Source of the DNA: a virus
Taxonomy: Duplodnaviria > Heunggongvirae > Uroviricota > Caudoviricetes
IMG/VR virus record: IMGVR_UViG_3300045988_065712
DNA length: 21,739 bases
Direction: 5' to 3' (one strand)
Part shown: piece by piece, positions 6,661 through 21,739 of the stretch
How positions within the stretch are numbered: position 1 is the first letter of the stretch
Layout: each line of letters begins with the position of its first letter
Translations under genes and position numbers: made by a program
The notes under the pieces: model-generated
Seen by the model: the letters and a program-made list of their open reading frames with translations, nothing else
Told to the model about the DNA's origin: nothing
Databases searched by the model: none

Positions 6661-7254
6661 CTATTTGTCCCGGTTGGCTAAGGGATGACACAATTTATTC
6701 TTTGTCGCTGATGAGGGGAATTTTTTATAGAGCGTGGACAGGCCAATATCAAAAATCAGCGCCACGCGTTGACGTGATTCACCCGCAGCCAGCAACCGTC
6801 CTGCCTGTTCCCACTCACTCGCGGTGAGCTTCGGACGTCTGCCACCAATACGACCTTTAGCTCTGGTCGCTTCCAGTCCGGCGCGTGTCCGCTCGACAAT
6901 GAGTTCTCGTTCCATTTCAGCCAGGGCACCCATCACATGAAAGAAAAAACGCCCCATCGGCGTGCTGGTATCAATAGCATCCGTCAGGCTGCGAAAATTA
7001 ACGCCGCGTTCGCGCAGCTCCTCAACCAGAATGACCAGATGCCGCATACTACGCCCCAGCCTGTCCAGCTTCCAGACCACCAGTGTATCCCCCTCCGATA
7101 ATGTCCTGAGCAGTTTTTTCAGTCCCGGTCGGTCGGACTTAGTGCCGCTGATTTTATCCTCAAAAATCAGCTCACATCCTGCGCACTCCAGCGCGTTACG
7201 CTGCAATTCCGTGTTCTGGTCATTTGTTGACACGCGTACATAGCCAATAAGCAT
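6661..7254 (-). CDS. Site-specific DNA invertase, small serine recombinase of the Hin/Gin/Cin/Pin family
   Basis: N-terminus MLIGYVRVSTNDQNTELQRNALE... carries the catalytic-serine motif (VRVSTNDQ). Also GDTLVVWKLDRLGRS, FFHVMGALAEMERELIVERT and a C-terminal HTH-like segment (LSTLYKK). Start set at the third Met of the ORF-track ORF (7254), which has an AGGGGG Shine-Dalgarno about 6 nt upstream. The track start at 7260 is the alternative. Confidence 0.9.
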   Translation of the reverse strand: MLIGYVRVSTNDQNTELQRNALECAGCELIFEDKISGTKSDRPGLKKLLRTLSEGDTLVVWKLDRLGRSMRHLVILVEELRERGVNFRSLTDAIDTSTPMGRFFFHVMGALAEMERELIVERTRAGLEATRAKGRIGGRRPKLTASEWEQAGRLLAAGESRQRVALIFDIGLSTLYKKFPSSATKNKLCHPLANRDK

Positions 7255-7309
7255 GAGCATCCCCCTGAATAAAAACCGGAGATGATGCCAGTTACCCGTT
7301 GTCTCTGCA

Positions 7310-7335
7310 TTTTCATAAACGTTGGTTTGGGGGAA
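7310..7335. other. Candidate invertase crossover site (ttttcatAAACG-TT-GGTTTgggggaa)
   Basis: Contains the AAACx-NN-xGTTT core typical of Hin/Gin-family recombination sites. Lies about 55-80 bp upstream of the invertase start, where hix/gix-type sites sit, and at the 5' boundary of the promoterless fibre-tip cassette. Overall match to hix/gix is only partial. Confidence 0.4.
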
Positions 7336-7755
7336 GGCTCTGCACTGCCTGTTGGTGTGCCCGTTCCGTGGCCCTTAGAAACACCACCAACGGGCTGGCT
7401 AAAATGCAATGGTGCAGCATTTTCTTCTGAAATGTATCCCAAACTGGCAAAAGCCTACCCCACCAATAAATTACCGGATTTACGCGGTGAATTTATCCGT
7501 GGCTGGGATGATGGGCGCGGGATTGATGCGGGACGTACCCTGCTTTCAGGGCAGGATGGTACAAGTTTTTCTCATTACGGAGGTAATTTCGACATTGGGT
7601 CTGGTCATTCAATCAATAACTATGACCAAATTGTTTCTAACCAACCAGGATTTTCCCGTTTTTCATTTGCAGGGCCTTCACGAGGTGATGGGGTTAATTA
7701 TGTAACCATTCGTCCTCGTAACATTGCGTTTAATTATATCGTAAGGGCGGCATGA
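7322..7755 (+). CDS. Promoterless alternative tail-fibre C-terminal (receptor-binding tip) cassette, about 145 codons, opposite orientation to H
   Basis: ORF 7282..7755 encodes ...GEGSALPVGVPVPWPLETPPTGWLKCNGAAFSSEMYPKLAKAYPTNKLPDLRGEFIRGWDDGRGIDAGR..., a tail-collar-type fibre tip like the variable tip segments of Mu/P1-type invertible tail-fibre systems. No Shine-Dalgarno or promoter. The N-terminal 13 codons of the track ORF are read-through of the invertase promoter region. Confidence 0.7.
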
Positions 7756-7774
7756 AAACGTTCGTTTCGAACAG
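7749..7774. other. Second crossover-like site (ggcatgAAAACG-TT-CGTTTcgaacag) overlapping the cassette stop codon
   Basis: 12-mer aaacgttcgttt (7756..7767) is an 11/12 match to aaacgttggttt (7317..7328), with the same TT core on the same strand, so a direct repeat. Perfect 5-bp dyad AAACG/CGTTT around the core. Confidence 0.3.
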
Positions 7775-7803
7775 GAGGAGTAGCGGAGGGCTATGTTGCT
7801 TAG

Positions 7804-7851
7804 TTTGAAAATAGCTGGTCTTGCTGATGCGCATTGATGTAGCAAGACCAG
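7804..7851 (-). terminator. Probable rho-independent terminator of the V-W-J-I-H-G tail operon (11-bp stem, U-rich tail on minus strand)
   Basis: Perfect inverted repeat ctggtcttgct (7815..7825) and agcaagaccag (7841..7851) with a 15-nt loop. On the minus strand it lies 7 nt downstream of the G stop codon and is followed by CUAUUUUC. Confidence 0.5.
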
Positions 7852-7857
7852 TATGGT

Positions 7858-8226
7858 CTAAAGTTCCGGGATGACAGGCCAGTTAACATGCTCAGGGTCG
7901 GTTGTTACATCAACAGCCTTAACCTGATTCTTATATAAAAGCCACGCCGAAAGTTTAGCTCTGTTGGCATCGCTGATTTCACCCAGCATCAGCTCTGTGC
8001 GCCAGTCGAGCATAATTGCATCAGCGGCGGACAGTAATCGCTGTCGCTCATTTTCAGCAGCCTGGATGAGTTGTTCATGAGTCGGTGGGGGATTAATAAT
8101 TGCCATAGCCTCACTTCTGGTGATTGGCACAAGCCCTTCTTTGATAAAAGCATCCTGTGTGCCATACGCATCGTAGGCATATACGACGTTATTTTCATCT
8201 TTGTAATACTTCATCATTGTTATCAT
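7858..8226 (-). CDS. G: Tail fibre assembly chaperone (P2 gpG/Tfa-like function), 122 aa
   Basis: 122-aa ORF immediately downstream of the tail-fibre gene, with ATGA start/stop overlap with H. C-terminal ...HVNWPVIPEL is typical of Tfa chaperones. Shorter than, and unlike, P2 G as recalled. Confidence 0.8.
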   Translation of the reverse strand: MITMMKYYKDENNVVYAYDAYGTQDAFIKEGLVPITRSEAMAIINPPPTHEQLIQAAENERQRLLSAADAIMLDWRTELMLGEISDANRAKLSAWLLYKNQVKAVDVTTDPEHVNWPVIPEL

Positions 8227-9740
8227 TTTTTATCCACCTCTACCCAGGTAACATCTGACACTGTTCCTGAAAACTGCTGCACAATATAGGTCGCACCGGC
8301 AGGAACCATGAATGCGATAGTTGCTCTTTGCCCTGCAAGATTTGTTGTCTGAGAGCCGCGAAAATTAGCCGAATTACCATCCACATTAACGTTGGCGCTC
8401 AGAAATGAACTACCGTCAGACAGCACCGCATTGACGCTTACAAATATGGCGAAAGACTGGCTGTTGGTGTATACGACACCGAGATTTCTAGATTTCATTC
8501 CGCATTGACCAAACAACCCTTTCATATCTGAATAGTTTTGTGATGCAGCAAGTGATGATGCAGCAACACCAGATTCTGTTGATGTTCTGGAATCAGATAC
8601 GCGGATAATTCCCTTGTTTGTAGTGGTTGCATCATTAGTCTTGCCTTGCAGAGCTACAATATCCGCATAATTCATCGCTGCCGCTTTTGCTGTTGCAGCA
8701 AGCGTTTCAGATTCGGATACCCTTGATGATGTAAGTTGAACAATTCCTTTCTGTGTCGTAGTTGAATCCTGAGTTTTGTTTTGCAAAGATTTTATGTCCG
8801 TATAGTTTTGCGCGACAGCATTAGCTGTGGCTGCAATATCCTCTGCACCCGATACCCGCGATGAGGTTAACCGGACTAAACCCACCTGTGTTGTTGATGC
8901 GTCTTTAATACCAAGGTATGCAAGAAGACCGGCAACATCCTTCCCACTCAAATGAGTCAGCGTCTCATCCAGTGGCTGCTTACCTGACAGCGCATTGTTA
9001 ATGGTGGTACTGAATTTCGGGTCATTGTTAATGGCTGCGGCAATTTCTTTCAGTGTGTCCAGCGTGGCTGGCGCACCGTTAATCAGAGCGGTAATAGCGG
9101 CCTGAACAAACTCAGTGGTCGCAATCCGCGTGGTGTTATTTCCTGCGGCAGGCGTCGGCGCTTTTGGTTCTCCGGTAAATGTCGGATTATGTTTCTGTGC
9201 ATACTGGGTATGAGGATCCTGTGCGGCAATGTGGTTTCTCATCTGGTCATCCACATACAGCCTTAATTCCAGGACTTCATCATCCACGTATTTACGGGTC
9301 GCCAGTACCACCGACGGGTCGATTTTCAGCGTGATAGCTTCGGTATTCGTGACAACCAGAATCATGCGGATAGTCTGGGTACGACCGCTGCCTTCCTGCA
9401 ACTGCGGTTTGTACGTTTCCGGGCAGTTCGCCACCGCAATGAGTACGCCTTCATCATCATAAAGCCCAATCTCACGGATCCAGAATCCGCCCTCGTTCTC
9501 AGGGATGATTTGCTCCGCAATAATCTGGCTCTGGTTGTTCGGGTCAACACTCAGAAGATTCAGCGGCGCGATGCGTTTCTGGTTAATCAGTTTTGTCTGT
9601 GCCGGGTCTGGTGTCGGCAAGACACCATTCGCATCACCAACTGCCATTTGCGTCAGATTCAGCTTACTGCCGAGCATCGTCGCGTTAGCCAGCCGTGCTG
9701 CGCCCTGATTAGTCAGAATGGCGTAGTATTTCACTGTCAT
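8223..9740 (-). CDS. H: Tail fibre protein (P2 gpH-like N-terminus, divergent C-terminal half), 505 aa
   Basis: N-terminal region (AVGDANGVLPTP..., GGFWIREIGLYDDEGVLIAVANCPETYKPQLQEGSGRTQTIRMILVV) resembles the conserved baseplate-attachment domain of P2 H. Central triple repeat and a distinct C-terminal domain. Positioned between I and G. Confidence 0.88.
   Translation of the reverse strand: MTVKYYAILTNQGAARLANATMLGSKLNLTQMAVGDANGVLPTPDPAQTKLINQKRIAPLNLLSVDPNNQSQIIAEQIIPENEGGFWIREIGLYDDEGVLIAVANCPETYKPQLQEGSGRTQTIRMILVVTNTEAITLKIDPSVVLATRKYVDDEVLELRLYVDDQMRNHIAAQDPHTQYAQKHNPTFTGEPKAPTPAAGNNTTRIATTEFVQAAITALINGAPATLDTLKEIAAAINNDPKFSTTINNALSGKQPLDETLTHLSGKDVAGLLAYLGIKDASTTQVGLVRLTSSRVSGAEDIAATANAVAQNYTDIKSLQNKTQDSTTTQKGIVQLTSSRVSESETLAATAKAAAMNYADIVALQGKTNDATTTNKGIIRVSDSRTSTESGVAASSLAASQNYSDMKGLFGQCGMKSRNLGVVYTNSQSFAIFVSVNAVLSDGSSFLSANVNVDGNSANFRGSQTTNLAGQRATIAFMVPAGATYIVQQFSGTVSDVTWVEVDKK
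8511..8900 (-). repeat. Three tandem copies of a roughly 45-codon (135-bp) repeat inside the tail-fibre shaft of H
   Basis: Protein residues about 281-410: ASTTQVGLVRLTSSRVSGAEDIAATANAVAQNYTDIKSLQNKTQD / STTTQKGIVQLTSSRVSESETLAATAKAAAMNYADIVALQGKTND / ATTTNKGIIRVSDSRTSTESGVAASSLAASQNYSDMKGLFGQ. The DNA-level periodicity is visible. Confidence 0.65.
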
Positions 9741-10348
9741 GCGTTTACTCTCAGGTTATCAATTAAATGAATGGCCGAGGCCGGGAAATAATCCCCTCCG
9801 ACAATAATGGCCTCCGGGGTGTAGGGATAAACCGTCAGGGCGTCGCCGTGATAGCATCCTGCACCGGCAAAAATGTTGCCGGTTGTACTTAAACTGATAG
9901 CCAGTCCCGTCAGATGGCGGCTTGCAGGTTTTGCATCAGCAACGAGACGCTCCAGCTCCTGATACATTTCCTCGGTAATACCCTGCTCAAGCACGCCAAC
10001 AACGATGCGGAACGTCCCCGGCTCCTCGTTGAGCTGCCACCACTCCCTCACCTCAATCAGATAGCCGAGCGGCTCCACCACACGGCGAATCGCACCAATA
10101 GTGCCCTTATGGCAGTGAATGAAATACGCATCGCGGATAACAGCGCGTTTTGTCGCTTCCGGCCACTTATCATCCCAGCGGTCAACCGAAAATGACCACG
10201 CCAGCCACGGCAGCAGATTTGCCGGACAGGTATCCGGGTTCCACAGCTCACGAATACTGACCGGCGTTTTTTCAATTTCCGCACAGGCTCTTGCGGCGGC
10301 GACTTCAAGCGGTGATGAGCCGGTCGGCAGCAGTCGCGAATCACTCAT
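9737..10348 (-). CDS. I: Baseplate protein (P2 gpI-like), 203 aa
   Basis: ORF between J and H with 4-nt overlap with H. Resembles the P2 gpI N-terminus as recalled. Longer than the 176 aa of P2 I. Confidence 0.85.
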   Translation of the reverse strand: MSDSRLLPTGSSPLEVAAARACAEIEKTPVSIRELWNPDTCPANLLPWLAWSFSVDRWDDKWPEATKRAVIRDAYFIHCHKGTIGAIRRVVEPLGYLIEVREWWQLNEEPGTFRIVVGVLEQGITEEMYQELERLVADAKPASRHLTGLAISLSTTGNIFAGAGCYHGDALTVYPYTPEAIIVGGDYFPASAIHLIDNLRVNA

Positions 10349-15766: not shown

Positions 15767-16510
15767 TTAACTGGCTTTCTTTTTCGGGCGTCCACGTTTT
15801 GCCGGTGTCACGCTCCGGCTCTTACGCGGGGTACGGGTGGCCGCTTTGGGCTGCGGCTCCGGCTTCGGTTTCAGCTCCCGCTCCAGTCGTTCAATCTCTT
15901 TTTTGACACCTGCCTGACAGTCGAGCTGTGTCGCACGTTGCAGGTGAGCCAGCGCACCGGCGGCATCACCACCATCACGCAGAAACAGACCTGTGATTTT
16001 GTGCAGCTTTGCGCGCACTTCATCAGGCATGTCAGCCGTGGCGGTCAGTTCAAGGGTCTCCGTCAGCAGGCGGGTATCCACAGACTCACCGGCAGCGTGA
16101 GCACGCATGGCCGCGAGCGCCACCTCCTCGGTGAACATGTACGGCGGGGTGCGGCGGTGTTTACCCGGCATGGTCAGACCGTACTTCAGGGCATAACGGG
16201 CAATCTCCAGCGCACCGGCAATATCGCCGGTATCCAGACGCCACAGCATGACCGTCATCAGAATGTCATCCTGTGCGCCTTTGCCCTGCTCCAGCACGCC
16301 GTTCACCCACGGCAACCAGAACGGCAGCAGTTCGCGTTTTTTCGCGGCCTTAAGCTCTTTTGAATAAATCGCTTTCAGTGTGCGCTGGTCTGCGGCCAGC
16401 TTGACCAGCATCTGCTCATAGACAGTTGCATGTCGCAGCGGGGCGGCTTCCCGCTGCGCGGTCATCGCTGCCGAGACCCGCATCATGTGGCGCTGTGCGG
16501 GACTCGTCAT
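15767..16510 (-). CDS. M: Terminase small subunit (P2 gpM-like), 247 aa
   Basis: 247-aa ORF, same length as P2 gpM, with basic C-terminal tail (RTPRKSRSVTPAKRGRPKKKAS). Follows the major capsid gene. Confidence 0.9.
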   Translation of the reverse strand: MTSPAQRHMMRVSAAMTAQREAAPLRHATVYEQMLVKLAADQRTLKAIYSKELKAAKKRELLPFWLPWVNGVLEQGKGAQDDILMTVMLWRLDTGDIAGALEIARYALKYGLTMPGKHRRTPPYMFTEEVALAAMRAHAAGESVDTRLLTETLELTATADMPDEVRAKLHKITGLFLRDGGDAAGALAHLQRATQLDCQAGVKKEIERLERELKPKPEPQPKAATRTPRKSRSVTPAKRGRPKKKAS

Positions 16511-16513
16511 CGG

Positions 16514-17587
16514 TTACGCTCCCGGCTCTGCGGTCACTTTGGCCGGTGTGGAAAAATCACCGACCTTAATTTTTTCCACCAGACAACCGGCGGCGTAGTC
16601 TTCCACCACGTAATCAATGTTCATTGACTCGTAGTTCTCCACGCGGTCGAGTTTCGGGTTTTCCTCAATCACGCGGCGATGGCTGTCATCCATGTAGTAG
16701 ATGGACAGGTTTTCCAGCTTCGTGATGAGCATCGCATCCGCCGGGAAGTACGGGACGCGTACCGCCGGCAGGTTACCGATGCGTTTCTGGCTGATGATGA
16801 CGTCAGCGGCCAGCATTTCGCTGTTGTCCTGCTCCTTGTTAACGATGGGGAAATACTTGTCCGCCAGTAGCTGACGTCCCACAATCACCACAAGGTCAGG
16901 GTCTTCCTGATACCACGGCTCAATCAGGTTGTTGGTCGCATCCATCACCAGTGCATCGAGGCTGGCATAATCACCGCCCTTACCCACGCGGATGACCTCA
17001 GAGGTCGTGTGACCTTCCTCGTCAGTAACCTTGCTCATCACGCGCGCCGGGGCTTCATTGCGGTATTTCTGCAGCCAGCCGACCGCCACATCCTGCAGCA
17101 TCGGGTTACTGCTGCGGTCAGAGGTTTCGGCACGCCTCACGCCGTTAAAACCGGCCATGATTAAATCAAGGGACTGGCGTTTGATAATGGCGTTACGGAC
17201 ACGGAGCTGGAAATCCTGATAACGCGCCCACAGGTCCAGCGTTTTGTAGCGGATATAAAAATCGAAGTTAATCTGGTCGCATTCGTACTTGTTTGACGCC
17301 AGCTTCGAGAAGTCCTTCGGCTGACGCTCGGTGCCACCGGCGGTGTCGGTGGTGCTGGCGATGGAGCCGGTGACACCGATACCAATTTTTTCCCCTTTCA
17401 TTTCGCTGACCGGCACAATGTTGATGCGGGTCAGAAAGTCAGAGGACTCCTGCATGGTGTTCATCAGGGTCTGGGTGACCGACGGTTCAACGGTGAATTT
17501 TTTCGACACATCACCGGCGTCGATGCCGTTCAGTTCGGCAACACGGGACAGGTAAGCATTAAATTTAAAGCGGGTTTCCTGGCGCAT
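16514..17587 (-). CDS. N: Major capsid protein (P2 gpN-like), 357 aa
   Basis: 357-aa ORF, same length as P2 gpN, between scaffold O and M. Confidence 0.9.
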   Translation of the reverse strand: MRQETRFKFNAYLSRVAELNGIDAGDVSKKFTVEPSVTQTLMNTMQESSDFLTRINIVPVSEMKGEKIGIGVTGSIASTTDTAGGTERQPKDFSKLASNKYECDQINFDFYIRYKTLDLWARYQDFQLRVRNAIIKRQSLDLIMAGFNGVRRAETSDRSSNPMLQDVAVGWLQKYRNEAPARVMSKVTDEEGHTTSEVIRVGKGGDYASLDALVMDATNNLIEPWYQEDPDLVVIVGRQLLADKYFPIVNKEQDNSEMLAADVIISQKRIGNLPAVRVPYFPADAMLITKLENLSIYYMDDSHRRVIEENPKLDRVENYESMNIDYVVEDYAAGCLVEKIKVGDFSTPAKVTAEPGA

Positions 17588-17645
17588 AGTTTTTCCTGAA
17601 ATTAAGAGTTAATCGTGAAGGTTTTCCCGGACTGACTGACGCCGG

Positions 17646-18500
17646 TCAGCAGTTCGTCATCAGGGCGTCACCGCCACCACCGGTGGCCTTGCTGCGGCGC
17701 TGCTGGGTCAGACTTTCGGTGTGGTCGAGACTGTTTTTCAGGCGGGTGAATGCCTGGCTGGTTTCATCCGCCCTGTCAGTCACCTCCTGCTTAAGTGCAG
17801 AAAAGGCGGTTTCCATCTCAGAGAGGCGCTGCTCAGTGGCGCTCAGTTTTTCCTGCACATGTTCAGCAACAGCGGTCACCGCTTCATGCACGTCATTCAG
17901 ACGGGCGTCATCGCTGGCCTGTTTGCGGCCAAAAATGGATTTCACCTTTTCGGTCAGGGCGGTGAACACGGTTTCAGGCAGGTCTTCAAATTCCAGCTCA
18001 ACAGGCGTTGCCACTGAAATCAGGTTTTCAGGGCTTAATTTGAAGCGGTTCAGGGGGTTGTGTTTTGCCGTGCGGCAGAATTCCAGGTATTCCGTGCCGA
18101 GGCTTGCCGGGTCATCGGTGACGGCCAGACCCACCAGATAACATTTGCCGGTGTTGGCAAAGTTCGGCTGAATTTCCATTGAGGTGTAGACCTTCTGCGC
18201 GGCCTTGTTCATCGCGATAAGGTCATCGGTCGGGGTGATTTTCGCAAACAGCGCCCATTTGCCTTTCAGCGCCGAATCATCGTCAATCTTTTCGGCCTTC
18301 AGTTCGGCCACATCGCCATAACGCTTAAAAATACCGTCAGGCAGGATGCCGCGCAGATGTTCCAGGTTAATGCGGCAACCATAGACTCGCGGGTCAAAGG
18401 TTTCGGCCATTTCCTGAATATCCTGCGCACTGATGACACGCCCGTCACAGGTGTCACCCTCAACGCCGATACGAAAGAATTTTGAGACTTTTTTTGCCAT
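17646..18500 (-). CDS. O: Capsid scaffolding protein (P2 gpO-like), 284 aa
   Basis: Track ORF 17646..18566 trimmed to the internal Met (MAKKVSKFFRIGVEGDT...) giving 284 aa, the P2 gpO length. CAT at 18498..18500 checked. Confidence 0.85.
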   Translation of the reverse strand: MAKKVSKFFRIGVEGDTCDGRVISAQDIQEMAETFDPRVYGCRINLEHLRGILPDGIFKRYGDVAELKAEKIDDDSALKGKWALFAKITPTDDLIAMNKAAQKVYTSMEIQPNFANTGKCYLVGLAVTDDPASLGTEYLEFCRTAKHNPLNRFKLSPENLISVATPVELEFEDLPETVFTALTEKVKSIFGRKQASDDARLNDVHEAVTAVAEHVQEKLSATEQRLSEMETAFSALKQEVTDRADETSQAFTRLKNSLDHTESLTQQRRSKATGGGGDALMTNC

Positions 18501-18673
18501 TGTCAGGAGTCCTGAATAGTGATTAGAGGAGTCACATGTCGGCATCAGTTTCCCGACGATGCGCATCCTCCGCCATCAGTCCCGGATGGCTTATCACTGA
18601 CACAACAGCACCTTAGCGAATCGCGGGGCGCGACTCAGTAGCCTTGCCGTGTATTCATCACGGCGAGGTATTC
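18501..18673. promoter_or_regulatory. Divergent late-promoter region between O (minus) and P (plus); candidate Ogr-type element TGG-N12-ACA at 18587..18604
   Basis: 173-bp intergenic region between divergently transcribed late operons, as in P2 where Ogr-dependent promoters sit here. One near-consensus TGT-N12-ACA-like dyad (TGG cttatcactgac ACA) and a repeated motif catcagt(t)(t)cccg at 18543..18556 and 18574..18586. Exact -10 elements not resolved. Confidence 0.4.
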
Positions 18674-20475
18674 ATGACCATCACCACAGACACCACTCTT
18701 TTACACGACCCGCGTCGTCAGGCGGCGCTGCTGTACTGGCAGGGGTTTTCCGTGCCGCAGATTGCCGCCATGTTGCAGATGAAACGTCCGACGGTGCAGA
18801 GCTGGAAACAGCGCGACGGCTGGGACAGCGTTGCCCCCATCAGCCGTGTCGAAATGAGTCTGGAAGCGCGACTGACCCAGCTCATCATCAAACCGCAGAA
18901 AACCGGCGGTGACTTCAAGGAAATTGACCTGCTGGGACGCCAGATTGAACGACTGGCACGGGTAAACCGCTACAGTCAGACCGGCAACGAGGCAGACCTT
19001 AATCCGAACGTCGCTAACCGCAACAAAGGCGGGCGTCGCAAACCGAAAAAGAATTTTTTCAGTGACGAGGCCATCGAAAAGCTGGAGCAGATTTTCTTTG
19101 AGCAGTCTTTCGAATATCAGTTGCACTGGTATCGCGCCGGGCTTGAGCACCGCATCCGCGATATCCTGAAATCCCGCCAGATTGGCGCGACGTTTTATTT
19201 TTCCCGCGAGGCGCTGCTGCGCGCCCTGAAAACCGGTCATAACCAGATTTTTCTGTCGGCCAGTAAAACGCAGGCGTATGTGTTCCGCGAATACATCATC
19301 GCCTTTGCCCGGCTGGTTGACGTTGACCTGACCGGTGACCCGATTGTCCTGGGCAATAACGGCGCAAAACTGATTTTTCTCGGCACCAACTCCAACACCG
19401 CACAGAGCCATAACGGCGACCTGTACGTCGACGAGATTTTCTGGATCCCGAATTTTCAGGTACTGCGTAAGGTGGCATCAGGTATGGCCTCACAGAGTCA
19501 CCTGCGCTCGACCTATTTCTCCACCCCGTCCACGCTGGCGCACGACGCCTACCCGTTCTGGTCGGGTGAACTGTTCAACCGGGGACGCGCCAGCGCCGCC
19601 GAACGCGTGGAAATCGACGTCAGTCATAACGCCCTTGCCGGAGGTCTTCTCTGTGCGGACGGCCAGTGGCGGCAGATTGTCACCATTGAGGACGCCCTGA
19701 AAGGCGGCTGCACGCTGTTCGACATTGAGCAGCTCAAACGTGAAAACAGCGCCGACGATTTTAAAAACCTGTTCATGTGTGAATTTGTTGACGACAAGGC
19801 GTCGGTGTTCCCGTTCGAGGAGCTGCAACGCTGCATGGTCGACACGCTGGAAGAATGGGAAGACTATGCGCCGTTTGCCGCGAATCCGTTCGGCTCCCGC
19901 CCGGTCTGGATTGGTTACGACCCGTCACACCGTGGCGACAGCGCCGGATGCGTGGTGCTGGCACCGCCGGGGCCGGATGCGTGGTGCTGGCACCGCCGGT
20001 GGTGGCCGGTGGCAAATTCAGAATACTTGAGCGTCACCAGTGGAAAGGCATGGACTTTGCCACCCAGGCTGAATCCATCCGCAAACTCACCGAAAAATAT
20101 AACGTCGAATACATCGGTATTGATGCCACCGGCCTCGGTGTCGGCGTGTTCCAGCTCGTGCGCTCGTTCTATCCCGCCGCGCGCGACATCCGCTACACGC
20201 CGGAAATGAAAACCGCAATGGTGCTCAAGGCAAAAGACGTCATCCGCCGTGGCTGTCTGGAATATGACGTCAGCGCCACCGACATCACCAGCTCGTTTAT
20301 GGCTATCCGCAAGACCATGACCAGCAGCGGACGCAGCGCCACCTATGAGGCCAGCCGCAGCGAGGAAGCCAGCCACGCCGACCTCGCCTGGGCGACCATG
20401 CACGCCCTGTTAAATGAGCCACTCACCGCGGGTATCAGCACTCCGCTGACATCCACCATTCTGGAGTTTTACTGA
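18674..20475 (+). pseudogene. P: Terminase large subunit (P2 gpP-like), frame disrupted by a 29-bp tandem duplication at 19942..19999
   Basis: Track shows two overlapping fragments: 18644..20209 (N-terminal part, then a W/R/C-rich nonsense tail) and 19855..20475 (C-terminal part in another frame). Start set at MTITTDTTLL (ATG 18674, GAGGT Shine-Dalgarno). Span minus 29 bp is 1773 nt, i.e. 590 codons plus stop, the P2 gpP length. Confidence 0.85.
19942..19999 (+). repeat. Imperfect 29-bp tandem duplication inside P (28/29 identical)
   Basis: 19942..19970 cgccggatgcgtggtgctggcaccgccgg and 19971..19999 ggccggatgcgtggtgctggcaccgccgg, compared base by base. The peptide GCVVLAPP is encoded twice. 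Confidence 0.92.
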
Positions 20476-21538
20476 TGAGCAAGAAAAAAGGGAAAACACC
20501 GCAACCTGCGGCAAAAACAATGACCGCCAGCGCCCCGAAAATGGAGACATTCACCTTTGGTGAGCCGGTGCCGGTACTCGACCGCCGTGACATTCTGGAT
20601 TACATCGAGTGCATCAGTAACGGCAGATGGTATGAGCCGCCGGTCAGCTTTACCGATGGTATGAGCCACCGGTCAGCTTTACCGGTCTGGCAAAAAGCCT
20701 GCGTGCTGCCGTGCATCACAGTTCACCGATTTACGTCAAACGTAATATTCTGGCTTCAACGTTTATTCCGCACCCGTGGCTTTCGCAACAGGATTTCAGC
20801 CGCTTTGTGCTGGATTTTCTGGTGTTCGGTAATGCGTTTCTGGAAAAGCGTTACAGCACCACCGGTAAGGTCATCAGACTGGAAACCTCACCGGCAAAAT
20901 ATACCCGCCGTGGCGTGGAGGAGGATGTTTACTGGTGGGTGCCGTCCTTCAACGAACCGACAGCCTTCACGCCCGGCTCCGTGTTTCACCTGCTGGAGCC
21001 GGATATTAATCAGGAGCTGTACGGCCTGCCGGAATATCTCAGCGCCCTTAACTCTGCCTGGCTGAATGAGTCGGCCACACTGTTCCGCCGCAAGTATTAC
21101 GAAAACGGCGCGCATGCCGGATACATCATGTACGTTACCGATGCCGTGCAGGATCGCAACGATATCGAAATGCTTCGCGAAAACATGGTTAAGTCGAAAG
21201 GCCGCAACAACTTTAAAAACCTGTTTCTCTATGCCCCACAGGGGAAAGCCGACGGCATTAAAATTATCCCGCTCAGTGAAGTGGCAACGAAGGACGATTT
21301 TTTTAATATCAAAAAAGCCAGCGCCGCTGACCTGCTGGACGCGCACCGCATCCCCTTTCAGTTGATGGGAGGCAAGCCGGAGAACGTCGGGTCGCTGGGT
21401 GATATTGAGAAAGTGGCAAAGGTCTTTGTCCGCAATGAGCTTATCCCGTTACAGGACAGGATTCGGGAAATAAACGGCTGGCTCGGTCAGGAGGTCATCC
21501 GCTTTAAAAACTACTCACTGGACACAGACAACGGCTGA
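20475..21538 (+). pseudogene. Q: Portal protein (P2 gpQ-like), frame disrupted by a 29-bp tandem duplication at 20627..20684
   Basis: Track shows 20475..21065 (N-terminal 62 aa, then nonsense) and 20711..21538 (rest of portal in another frame). Span minus 29 bp is 1035 nt, i.e. 344 codons plus stop, the P2 gpQ length. ATG overlaps the P stop (TGATG). Confidence 0.85.
20627..20684 (+). repeat. Imperfect 29-bp tandem duplication inside Q (28/29 identical)
   Basis: 20627..20655 atggtatgagccgccggtcagctttaccg and 20656..20684 atggtatgagccaccggtcagctttaccg. Single G/A difference at 20639 vs 20668. Confidence 0.92.
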
Positions 21539-21707: not shown

Positions 21708-21726
21708 GTGCTTTCCCCGCCTCGCC
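21708..21726. other. cos: cos site: 19-nt cohesive-end sequence of P2-type phages (reverse complement of GGCGAGGCGGGGAAAGCAC)
   Basis: Plus strand reads gtgctttccccgcctcgcc, the exact reverse complement of the 19-nt P2 cohesive end as I recall it. Lies about 170 bp beyond Q, the expected position. Confidence 0.65.
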
Positions 21727-21739
21727 CGCCCGCTTCATG

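What the first reader, a model, noticed from the sequence alone, without database searches (positions are those of the whole stretch)
19942..19999. Terminase large-subunit gene P is split by an imperfect 29-bp tandem duplication
Positions 19942..19970 and 19971..19999 are tandem copies, identical at 28 of 29 positions. Equivalently, a perfect 28-bp repeat (19943..19970 and 19972..19999) separated by a single G at 19971. The insertion shifts the frame: the upstream ORF runs into a Trp/Arg/Cys-rich nonsense tail, while the rest of the terminase is in a separate 206-codon ORF, and the peptide GCVVLAPP is encoded twice. Deleting one copy in silico gives a single ORF 18674..20475 of exactly 590 codons. 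As it stands the packaging ATPase/nuclease cannot be made as one polypeptide.
Basis: seen in the sequence. Interest (0 to 1): 0.8.

Follow-up and report, generated by a model that had tools for sequence, protein, structure and literature searches.

The report
Likely assembly-join duplications in prophage genes
The 29-base duplication that splits the phage terminase gene is really in the sequence, but it has an unreported twin in the next gene, and the two bracket a stretch carrying alleles of another P2-like phage, so both are most likely leftover overlaps from stitching sequence pieces together, not a biological mutation.

Summary
Positions 19942-19970 and 19971-19999 are a 28/29 tandem repeat that frameshifts the P2-type large terminase gene P. 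Deleting one copy restores a 590-aa protein identical to Yersinia phage L-413C gpP.

It splits the adjacent portal gene Q.

Against the nearest relatives, the repaired window shows:
- 0 mismatches in the 1268 nt left of duplication 1;
- 0 mismatches in the 624 nt right of duplication 2;
- 11 mismatches in between, in two tracts that each abut a duplication.

The base that distinguishes the two copies in Q is exactly the difference between the foreign and the kin allele. The only bases private to this window (20547A, 20604A) and the odd G19971 also lie in this interval.

Neither junction occurs in any genome, viral or metagenome collection searched. All intact relatives have single copies.

The best reading (about 0.75) is two unmerged 29-nt overlaps left by contig joining or gap closing, probably with reads from a second P2-like prophage. 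A real complex recombination event is not excluded (about 0.12). Only reads or PCR can decide. Interest is low.

The parts
18674..20475 (+). Large terminase gene P (P2 gpP type), 1802 nt as written, 29 nt too long. It is frameshifted after codon 432 and stops prematurely at 20209.
   Evidence: The repaired product is 590 aa, identical (591/591 with stop) to L-413C gpP. Pfam: Terminase_5, Terminase_6N (164-386), Terminase_6C (413-571).
19942..19970 (+). Duplication 1, left copy (C + 28-mer). Its first base, C19942, already differs from the kin allele (T).
19971..19999 (+). Duplication 1, right copy (G + the same 28-mer). G19971 matches no allele seen at either equivalent position (C/T at 19942, T at 20000), so it looks like an error at the tip of a sequence piece.
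19942..20100 (+). Tract 1: non-kin alleles at 19942, 20064, 20070 and 20100. All are synonymous third-position changes. 19972-20130, which holds three of the four sites, matches many E. coli prophages exactly.
20101..20502 (+). Centre of the interval: identical to the kin lineage, including the markers 20430G and 20442T that only L040 carries together.
20503..20654 (+). Tract 2: non-kin alleles at 20503, 20507, 20518, 20564 and 20639, plus 20547A and 20604A, the only two bases in the whole window seen in no relative.
20626..20654 (+). Duplication 2, left copy, carrying the foreign allele G at 20639.
20655..20683 (+). Duplication 2, right copy, carrying A at 20668, the base that the kin sequence has at this position. 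From here on the window is identical to kin L040 as far as L040 reaches (21307).
20475..21538 (+). Portal gene Q (P2 gpQ type), 1064 nt as written, 29 nt too long. It is split into ORFs 20475..21065 (196 aa) and 20711..21538 (275 aa).
   Evidence: The repaired product is 344 aa, as in all relatives. Pfam Phage_portal.

Best explanation
The two 29-nt tandem duplications are most likely not mutations. They look like unmerged overlaps at two joints where separately built pieces of sequence were abutted during assembly, scaffolding or gap closing.

As written, the window reads: lineage-A prophage up to about 19941; then a roughly 130-nt fill carrying another P2-like allele; then a lineage-A centre (about 20101-20502); then a roughly 150-nt fill carrying another allele; then lineage A again from 20655.

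At each joint the two pieces overlap by 29 nt with one mismatch. At joint 1 the mismatch is an erroneous tip base. At joint 2 it is an A/G allele difference. An exact-overlap merge would therefore fail, and both copies were kept.

The foreign alleles most plausibly come from reads of a second P2-like prophage in the same sample. A candidate source for the number 29 is k-mer gap filling with a 29-nt overlap, which is GapFiller's default.

Shown: the anatomy, the allele pattern and the absence elsewhere. Inferred: the software origin and the second prophage.

On this reading the real prophage has intact P (590 aa) and Q (344 aa).
For: 1. Two tandem duplications have the same period (29), each 28/29, lie 683 nt apart, and are the only ones in the window. 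In 730 kb of related DNA there is only one other short near-perfect tandem duplication.

2. Against nearest kin L040 and L041, the repaired window has 0/1268 mismatches in 18674-19941. Against L040, the only one of the two that reaches this far, it has 0/624 in 20684-21307. There are 11 mismatches in 19942-20639. The first is the first base of duplication 1, and the last is the base that distinguishes the copies of duplication 2. That is 11 of the 16 differences in 20.9 kb falling within about 700 nt.

3. In duplication 2 the left copy has the foreign allele (G) and the right copy the kin allele (A). Both are natural alleles.

4. The interval is a mosaic, with a lineage-A centre and other alleles only in the tracts abutting the duplications. 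No complete E. coli genome matches the 683-nt piece better than 99.1%.

5. The only window-private bases in 21.7 kb (20547A, 20604A) and the odd G19971 are in these tracts or at a joint.

6. The differences in P are all synonymous, so the fills are real alleles and not noise.

7. Apart from the duplications, P encodes a protein 100% identical to L-413C gpP, with no decay.

8. Both junction strings are absent from genome contigs, viral contigs and metagenome contigs. The 511-aa, 196-aa and 206-aa frameshift products are not on record. The listed best matches in E. coli genomes and phages span the single-copy length, and nearly all fetched relatives have P = 590 aa and Q = 344 aa.

9. GapFiller extends both gap edges one base at a time with 30-mers, using a default overlap of 29, and removes used k-mers (PMC3446322).

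10. Unmerged contig-end overlaps are a documented cause of artificial duplications with frameshifts (PMC5400248).
Against: - No reads, quality values or assembly metadata are available, so the artefact is inferred from anatomy only.
- The window contains no N, although an unclosed GapFiller gap would normally keep at least some Ns.
- I could not reproduce the exact registers. At joint 2, allele-specific k-mers should allow more than 29 nt of interpenetration in the toy logic.
- At joint 1 the switch from lineage A to the other allele lies up to 35 nt left of the joint (between 19907 and 19942), not at it.
- The source assembly, its assembler and a second prophage in it were not identified.
- The toy model is my own simplification, not the program.
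Confidence: 0.75

Rival explanations
1. A real, single, complex recombination event. DNA from a co-resident or superinfecting P2-like phage was copied into the prophage during break or gap repair. This left two short conversion tracts, a few polymerase errors, and a 29-nt duplication at the outer end of each tract. It inactivated both packaging genes at once.
For: - The foreign bases are genuine, selection-filtered alleles, and tract 1 matches many prophages exactly.
- E. coli genomes often hold 2-3 P2-like prophages (up to 3 places per genome), so a donor is plausible.
- Clustered private substitutions (20547, 20604) could reflect error-prone repair synthesis.
- Other degraded prophages have rearrangement endpoints within 5 nt of the right edge of duplication 2 (L045/L046 at 20678, L047 at 20679).
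Against: - No known E. coli repair or recombination pathway predicts two joints with the same 29-nt overlap. Template switching and microhomology-mediated events give variable lengths, and microhomology at the boundaries here is only 0-1 nt.
- The event is not seen in any other assembly, including the many assemblies of the same prophage lineage (L040 alone stands for 11 similar places).
- The deletion endpoints were pre-selected by my query to fall within a 142-nt interval.
Confidence: 0.12
2. Two independent spontaneous tandem duplications (replication slippage) that separately turned P and Q into pseudogenes in a decaying prophage. This is essentially the first reader's view, extended to Q.
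For: Tandem duplications are a common class of spontaneous frameshift mutation. Prophage packaging genes are dispensable to the host. Other relatives show unrelated decay, for example L020 with P in three ORFs and L044 with a 1-nt deletion in Q.
Against: This view requires several coincidences:
- two events of identical length within 700 nt, against a background of about one per 700 kb;
- each event acquiring one mismatch, while the rest of the 21.7 kb has no private base;
- both events falling exactly at the borders of the only non-kin stretch.

There is also no other decay: P is 100% identical in protein to a functional phage.
Confidence: 0.03
3. Footprints of an integrase-type reaction with a fixed stagger. 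One candidate is off-target Cas1-Cas2 (type I-E) integration, which duplicates about 28 bp of target. Another is excision of an element that makes 29-bp target-site duplications.
For: A fixed duplication length is what a staggered-cut enzyme would give. Duplication 1 has the form 28-mer + G + 28-mer. From my own knowledge, not tested here, this resembles the type I-E arrangement of a 28-bp repeat followed by a spacer whose first base is a PAM-derived G.
Against: - There is no spacer or element between the copies; only 0-1 nt is inserted.
- Duplication 2 does not have the 28+G form.
- The model does not explain the allele switch at the joints.
- The only motif shared by the two units is CCGCCGGT, the Pro-Pro-Val codons of both proteins.
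Confidence: 0.02

Closest known systems
Artificial duplication from unmerged overlapping contig ends or gap-closure extensions (described in PMC5400248; GapFiller k-mer extension with a default 29-nt overlap, PMC3446322)
   Same: Successive joints have the same overlap length. The sequence source changes at the joints. Errors sit at piece tips. The genes are frameshifted but otherwise perfect. The junctions occur in no other assembly. The length equals GapFiller's default overlap and the interpenetration predicted by a toy model.
   Different: There are no Ns or other scaffold marks in the window. The assembler is unknown, the exact registers were not reproduced, and there is no read-level proof.
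Large terminase gpP and portal gpQ of P2-like phages (Peduovirus; e.g. Yersinia phage L-413C, vB_YpM_50, Escherichia phage pro483)
   Same: Gene order O / P-Q, lengths of 590 and 344 aa after repair, domain architecture, and 98-99% nucleotide identity. The repaired P protein is identical to L-413C gpP.
   Different: As written, each gene carries a 29-nt insertion that shifts the frame. No relative carries either one.
Frameshift pseudogenes in decaying (cryptic) P2-like prophages
   Same: Packaging genes are broken in a chromosomal prophage. Examples among relatives are L020 (P in three ORFs), L044 (1-nt deletion in Q) and L045-L049 (large deletions).
   Different: Those show ordinary decay: point indels or deletions with microhomology. 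Here the rest of the prophage is pristine, and the lesions are two equal-length duplications bordering a foreign-allele patch.
Off-target spacer integration by Cas1-Cas2 (about 28-bp target duplication)
   Same: The duplication length is 28-29 bp and identical at both sites.
   Different: No roughly 33-bp insert lies between the copies, and this model does not explain the allele mosaic. Rejected.

Membership tests
P2-type large terminase (gpP) | Domain architecture: Terminase_5 (HTH) + Terminase_6N (ATPase) + Terminase_6C (RNaseH-like nuclease) | tested here: met
   In the repaired 590-aa product, all three domains score above the Pfam cut-offs.
P2-type large terminase (gpP) | Near-identity and equal length to characterised Peduovirus gpP, and synteny O / P-Q | tested here: met
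   591/591 (with stop) identical to L-413C gpP. The 1773-nt length matches L001-L003. The neighbours are gpO and gpQ.
P2-type large terminase (gpP) | One uninterrupted reading frame | tested here: not met
   As written, the frame shifts after codon 432 and stops at 20209. The nuclease domain is cut after its first strand.
Stitching artefact (unmerged overlap at a contig join or gap closure) | The same overlap length at independent joints | tested here: met
   Both duplications have period 29.
Stitching artefact (unmerged overlap at a contig join or gap closure) | The sequence source changes at or next to the joints, and a mismatch within the overlap explains the failed merge | tested here: met
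   Joint 2 has the foreign allele G in the left copy and the kin allele A in the right copy. Joint 1 has the odd tip base G19971. The non-kin tracts abut both joints.
Stitching artefact (unmerged overlap at a contig join or gap closure) | The junction is absent from all independent assemblies | tested here: met
   Zero hits in genome, viral and metagenome collections. None of the listed E. coli genome or phage matches carries the extra 58 bases.
Stitching artefact (unmerged overlap at a contig join or gap closure) | No or few reads span the junctions; other joints in the same assembly show the same defect | not testable with these tools
   The source assembly and its reads were not identified.
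Genuine slippage-type tandem duplication | Copies identical when recent, microhomology at the boundaries, and interior and flanks from one lineage | tested here: not met
   Each pair has one mismatch, although the window has no other private base. Microhomology is 0-1 nt. The interior carries other alleles.
Cas1-Cas2 off-target integration | About 28-bp target duplication flanking a spacer of about 33 bp | tested here: not met
   Only 0-1 nt lies between the copies.

The most novel reading that the evidence does not exclude
Both duplications are real and arose in vivo in one event. In that event a prophage's packaging genes were patched from a second P2-like phage by a process that leaves a fixed 29-nt staggered duplication at each end of the patch. 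This would point to an undescribed enzyme-defined recombination or anti-phage mechanism acting on P-Q, perhaps at a fragile site that also marks deletion endpoints in other prophages (20678/20679).
Probability: 0.08. Interest if true: 0.6.

Novelty: not a real feature. Interest (0 to 1): 0.12.

Why it matters
If the duplications are artefacts, this prophage is not defective. It carries intact terminase and portal genes and should be scored as potentially inducible and able to package. Any pseudogene call, "cryptic prophage" label or gene-loss inference based on this record would be wrong.

The case also gives a practical diagnostic for such errors:
- equal-length tandem duplications in neighbouring genes;
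- the duplications bracket a patch of foreign alleles;
- the length matches a tool's default parameter.

If the duplications were real, they would be an unusual one-step inactivation of both packaging genes, with a fixed-length signature worth chasing. The evidence does not favour that.

Tried and rejected
- **Junctions in public data.** I searched both junction strings in genome contigs, viral contigs and metagenome contigs. All returned 0 hits.
- **Source assembly by exact protein look-up.** The 511-aa, 196-aa and 206-aa frameshift products are not on record. The 275-aa Q fragment is on record, but only in unrelated deletion or point-frameshift remnants, and none has the duplication.
- **gpM as a lineage-specific anchor.** It turned out to be widespread. 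gpJ worked instead.
- **A single donor allele for the whole 683-nt piece.** The best match in 5,426 complete genomes is 99.1%, and the piece is a mosaic.
- **The tract-2 allele with the two private bases, searched in viral contigs.** 0 hits.
- **A shared recognition motif or restriction-type site at the boundaries.** Only CCGCCGGT (Pro-Pro-Val codons) is shared, at different offsets within the units. Rejected as a cause.
- **A Cas1-Cas2 or target-site-duplication footprint.** Rejected, because there is no insert.
- **A functional split terminase.** Rejected. The downstream ORF lacks the first strand of the nuclease domain (profile positions 1-13) and begins with out-of-frame residues.
- **Literature on 29-nt gap-closing artefacts.** The searches found only general statements.
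- **Inverted repeats flanking the invertible tail-fibre segment.** None was found at the settings used.

Full report
**What the window is.** The 21.7-kb window is the late (structural) half of a P2-like (Peduovirus) prophage of the kind common in E. coli. It runs from gene D through the tail, lysis and head genes to O on the minus strand, followed by P (large terminase) and Q (portal) on the plus strand. It is 97-98% identical to many E. coli prophages and to phages such as Yersinia phage vB_YpM_50, L-413C and Escherichia phage pro483. Relatives annotate P as 1773 nt (590 aa) and Q as 1035 nt (344 aa), with the P stop overlapping the Q start.

**Checking the observation.**
- 19942-19970 and 19971-19999 match at 28 of 29 positions. 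Equivalently, a perfect 28-mer occurs twice around G19971.
- The native ATG at 18674 opens a frame that shifts after codon 432 and stops at 20209.
- The rest of the gene lies in the 206-codon ORF 19855..20475, and GCVVLAPP is encoded twice.
- Removing one copy gives 1773 nt. The product is identical at all 590 residues to L-413C gpP.
- The duplication falls at the start of the RNaseH-like nuclease domain (Pfam Terminase_6C, residues 413-571). As written, the upstream product keeps the ATPase domain but has no nuclease, and the downstream ORF lacks the first strand of the nuclease domain.

TRF and the repeat finder report a second tandem duplication with the same 29-nt period, also 28/29, at 20626-20654 / 20655-20683, inside Q. 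It splits Q into ORFs of 196 and 275 aa, and removing one copy restores the 344-aa portal protein. These are the only two such repeats in the window. Two duplications of identical length 683 nt apart are therefore not independent chance events.

**The decisive comparison.** Exact-protein look-ups with the tape-measure, tail-fibre and gpJ proteins retrieved the same prophage lineage from other assemblies. L016, L017, L018/L041 and L040 differ from the window by 3-12 bases over 12-20 kb. With one copy of each duplication removed, the window compares with L040 and L041 as follows:
- 0/1268 mismatches in 18674-19941 against both. Counting back, there is no mismatch after 17381.
- 0/624 mismatches in 20684-21307 against L040. 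L041 ends at window position 20405.
- 11 mismatches to L040 in between, at 19942, 20064, 20070, 20100, 20503, 20507, 20518, 20547, 20564, 20604 and 20639. L041 shows the first four.

The first of these is the first base of duplication 1. The last is the very base that distinguishes the two copies of duplication 2.

In duplication 2, the left copy carries G, a natural allele found in E308 and L-413C. The right copy carries A, the base of the kin lineage.

The interval is itself a mosaic. The centre (20187-20442) carries markers that only L040 combines (20430G with 20442T), so it is lineage A. The departures from lineage A lie only in two tracts of about 130-150 nt, each abutting a duplication.

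The four differences in P are synonymous third-position changes. Those in Q are synonymous or conservative. The tracts therefore carry real alleles, not noise. The stretch 19972-20130, which holds three of the four tract-1 sites, matches many E. coli prophages exactly. Tract 2 matches a common allele except for two G-to-A changes, 20547 and 20604, found in none of about 1,550 E. coli genomes that carry the gene. Those two bases are the only bases in the whole 21.7-kb window seen in no relative. G19971 likewise corresponds to no known allele at either equivalent position.

**Uniqueness.** Both junction strings are absent from one genome per species of GTDB, from IMG/VR and from JGI metagenomes. 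The listed best matches in complete E. coli genomes and phage records span the single-copy length. The frameshift products are not on record. The 275-aa Q fragment is on record, but only in prophage remnants with large deletions or a 1-nt deletion, none with the duplication.

**Interpretation.** Each joint is best described as two sequences abutted with a 29-nt overlap that contains one mismatch.
- Joint 1: ...GCCGG..CCGGG | GCCGG..CCGGT, where the mismatch is a tip base.
- Joint 2: ...GAGCCGCC..TACC | ..GAGCCACC..TACC, where the mismatch is an allele difference.

Five features point the same way: equal overlap lengths, a change of sequence source at or beside the joints, anomalies concentrated at piece ends, otherwise pristine genes, and absence from every other assembly. 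They are what one expects from contig joining or gap closing that failed to merge overlaps. The fills would come from reads of a second P2-like prophage; E. coli genomes hold up to three. Unmerged overlapping contig ends are a documented source of artificial duplications with frameshifted ORFs (PMC5400248).

**A candidate origin for the number 29.** GapFiller extends both gap edges one base at a time with 30-mers, using a default overlap of m = 29. It removes used k-mers, and it closes a gap only if the extensions merge and the insert size fits (PMC3446322). A toy re-implementation gave 20, 29 and 32 nt for m = 20, 29 and 32.

This link is a lead, not proof:
- the window has no Ns;
- the toy logic does not reproduce joint 2 once allele-specific k-mers are considered;
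- the assembler of the source is unknown.

**Rivals.**
- A real, single, complex repair event copying from a second phage would explain the alleles and perhaps the private substitutions. No known pathway predicts two equal 29-nt overlaps with 0-1 nt of microhomology, and the event is unseen elsewhere. I give it about 0.12.
- A staggered-cut footprint such as Cas1-Cas2 fails because nothing lies between the copies, and it does not explain the mosaic (about 0.02).
- One point in favour of real fragility is that deletion endpoints in L045/L046 (20678) and L047 (20679) lie within 5 nt of the edge of duplication 2. My query restricted such endpoints to a 142-nt interval, and the junctions are ordinary microhomology deletions.

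**Verdict.** The biological interpretation of a split terminase is probably an artefact of sequence stitching. On that reading the prophage has intact P and Q. If the duplications are real after all, this is still only a prophage pseudogenisation, though one with an odd fixed-length signature. Reads or PCR across 19850-20750 would settle it.

Noticed in passing
window 20626-20683: A second 29-nt tandem duplication (28/29) splits the portal gene Q. It was not in the finding and became central to the interpretation.
   Followed up: yes
window 7319-8914 (beside the resolvase/invertase-type gene 6661-7260): In the near-identical relative L010, this 1.6-kb segment, which carries tail-fibre C-terminal and assembly cassettes, is inverted at 99.9% identity. 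The window therefore appears to hold a Gin/Cin-like invertible host-range switch. No long inverted repeats were found at its borders with the settings used.
   Followed up: partly
L045/L046 (junction at window 18749 to 20678) and L047 (window ~16190 to 20679): Two independent deletion remnants of P2-like prophages have their Q-side endpoints 1 nt apart and within 5 nt of the right edge of duplication 2. L048 and L049 share another endpoint near 20571-20575. This may be a local rearrangement hotspot or an effect of how the loci were selected.
   Followed up: partly
L007 2827-2862 (gpW homologue): An 18-nt near-perfect in-frame tandem duplication makes gpW 121 aa instead of 115 aa. It was the only other short tandem duplication in 730 kb of related DNA.
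   Followed up: no
L044 about 9960-9975 (Q): A 1-nt deletion in the A5 run (GGCAAAAAGCC to GGCAAAAGCC) frameshifts Q in another assembly and gives the same 275-aa ORF call.
   Followed up: no
L020 4055-5827 (GCA_900449385.1): The P gene is called as three ORFs (157, 91 and 320 aa), and this locus shows 191 mismatches in an ungapped comparison of the left part of P, probably because indels shift the register. It is another disrupted or error-rich terminase in a public assembly.
   Followed up: no
window 1 and 21726-21739: The window begins 2 nt inside the ogr stop codon at the prophage end. It stops 13 nt beyond the position matching base 1 (the left cohesive end) of the linear L-413C genome. 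It therefore spans almost exactly the ogr-to-cos half of the prophage, which may reflect contig breaks at repeat boundaries.
   Followed up: partly
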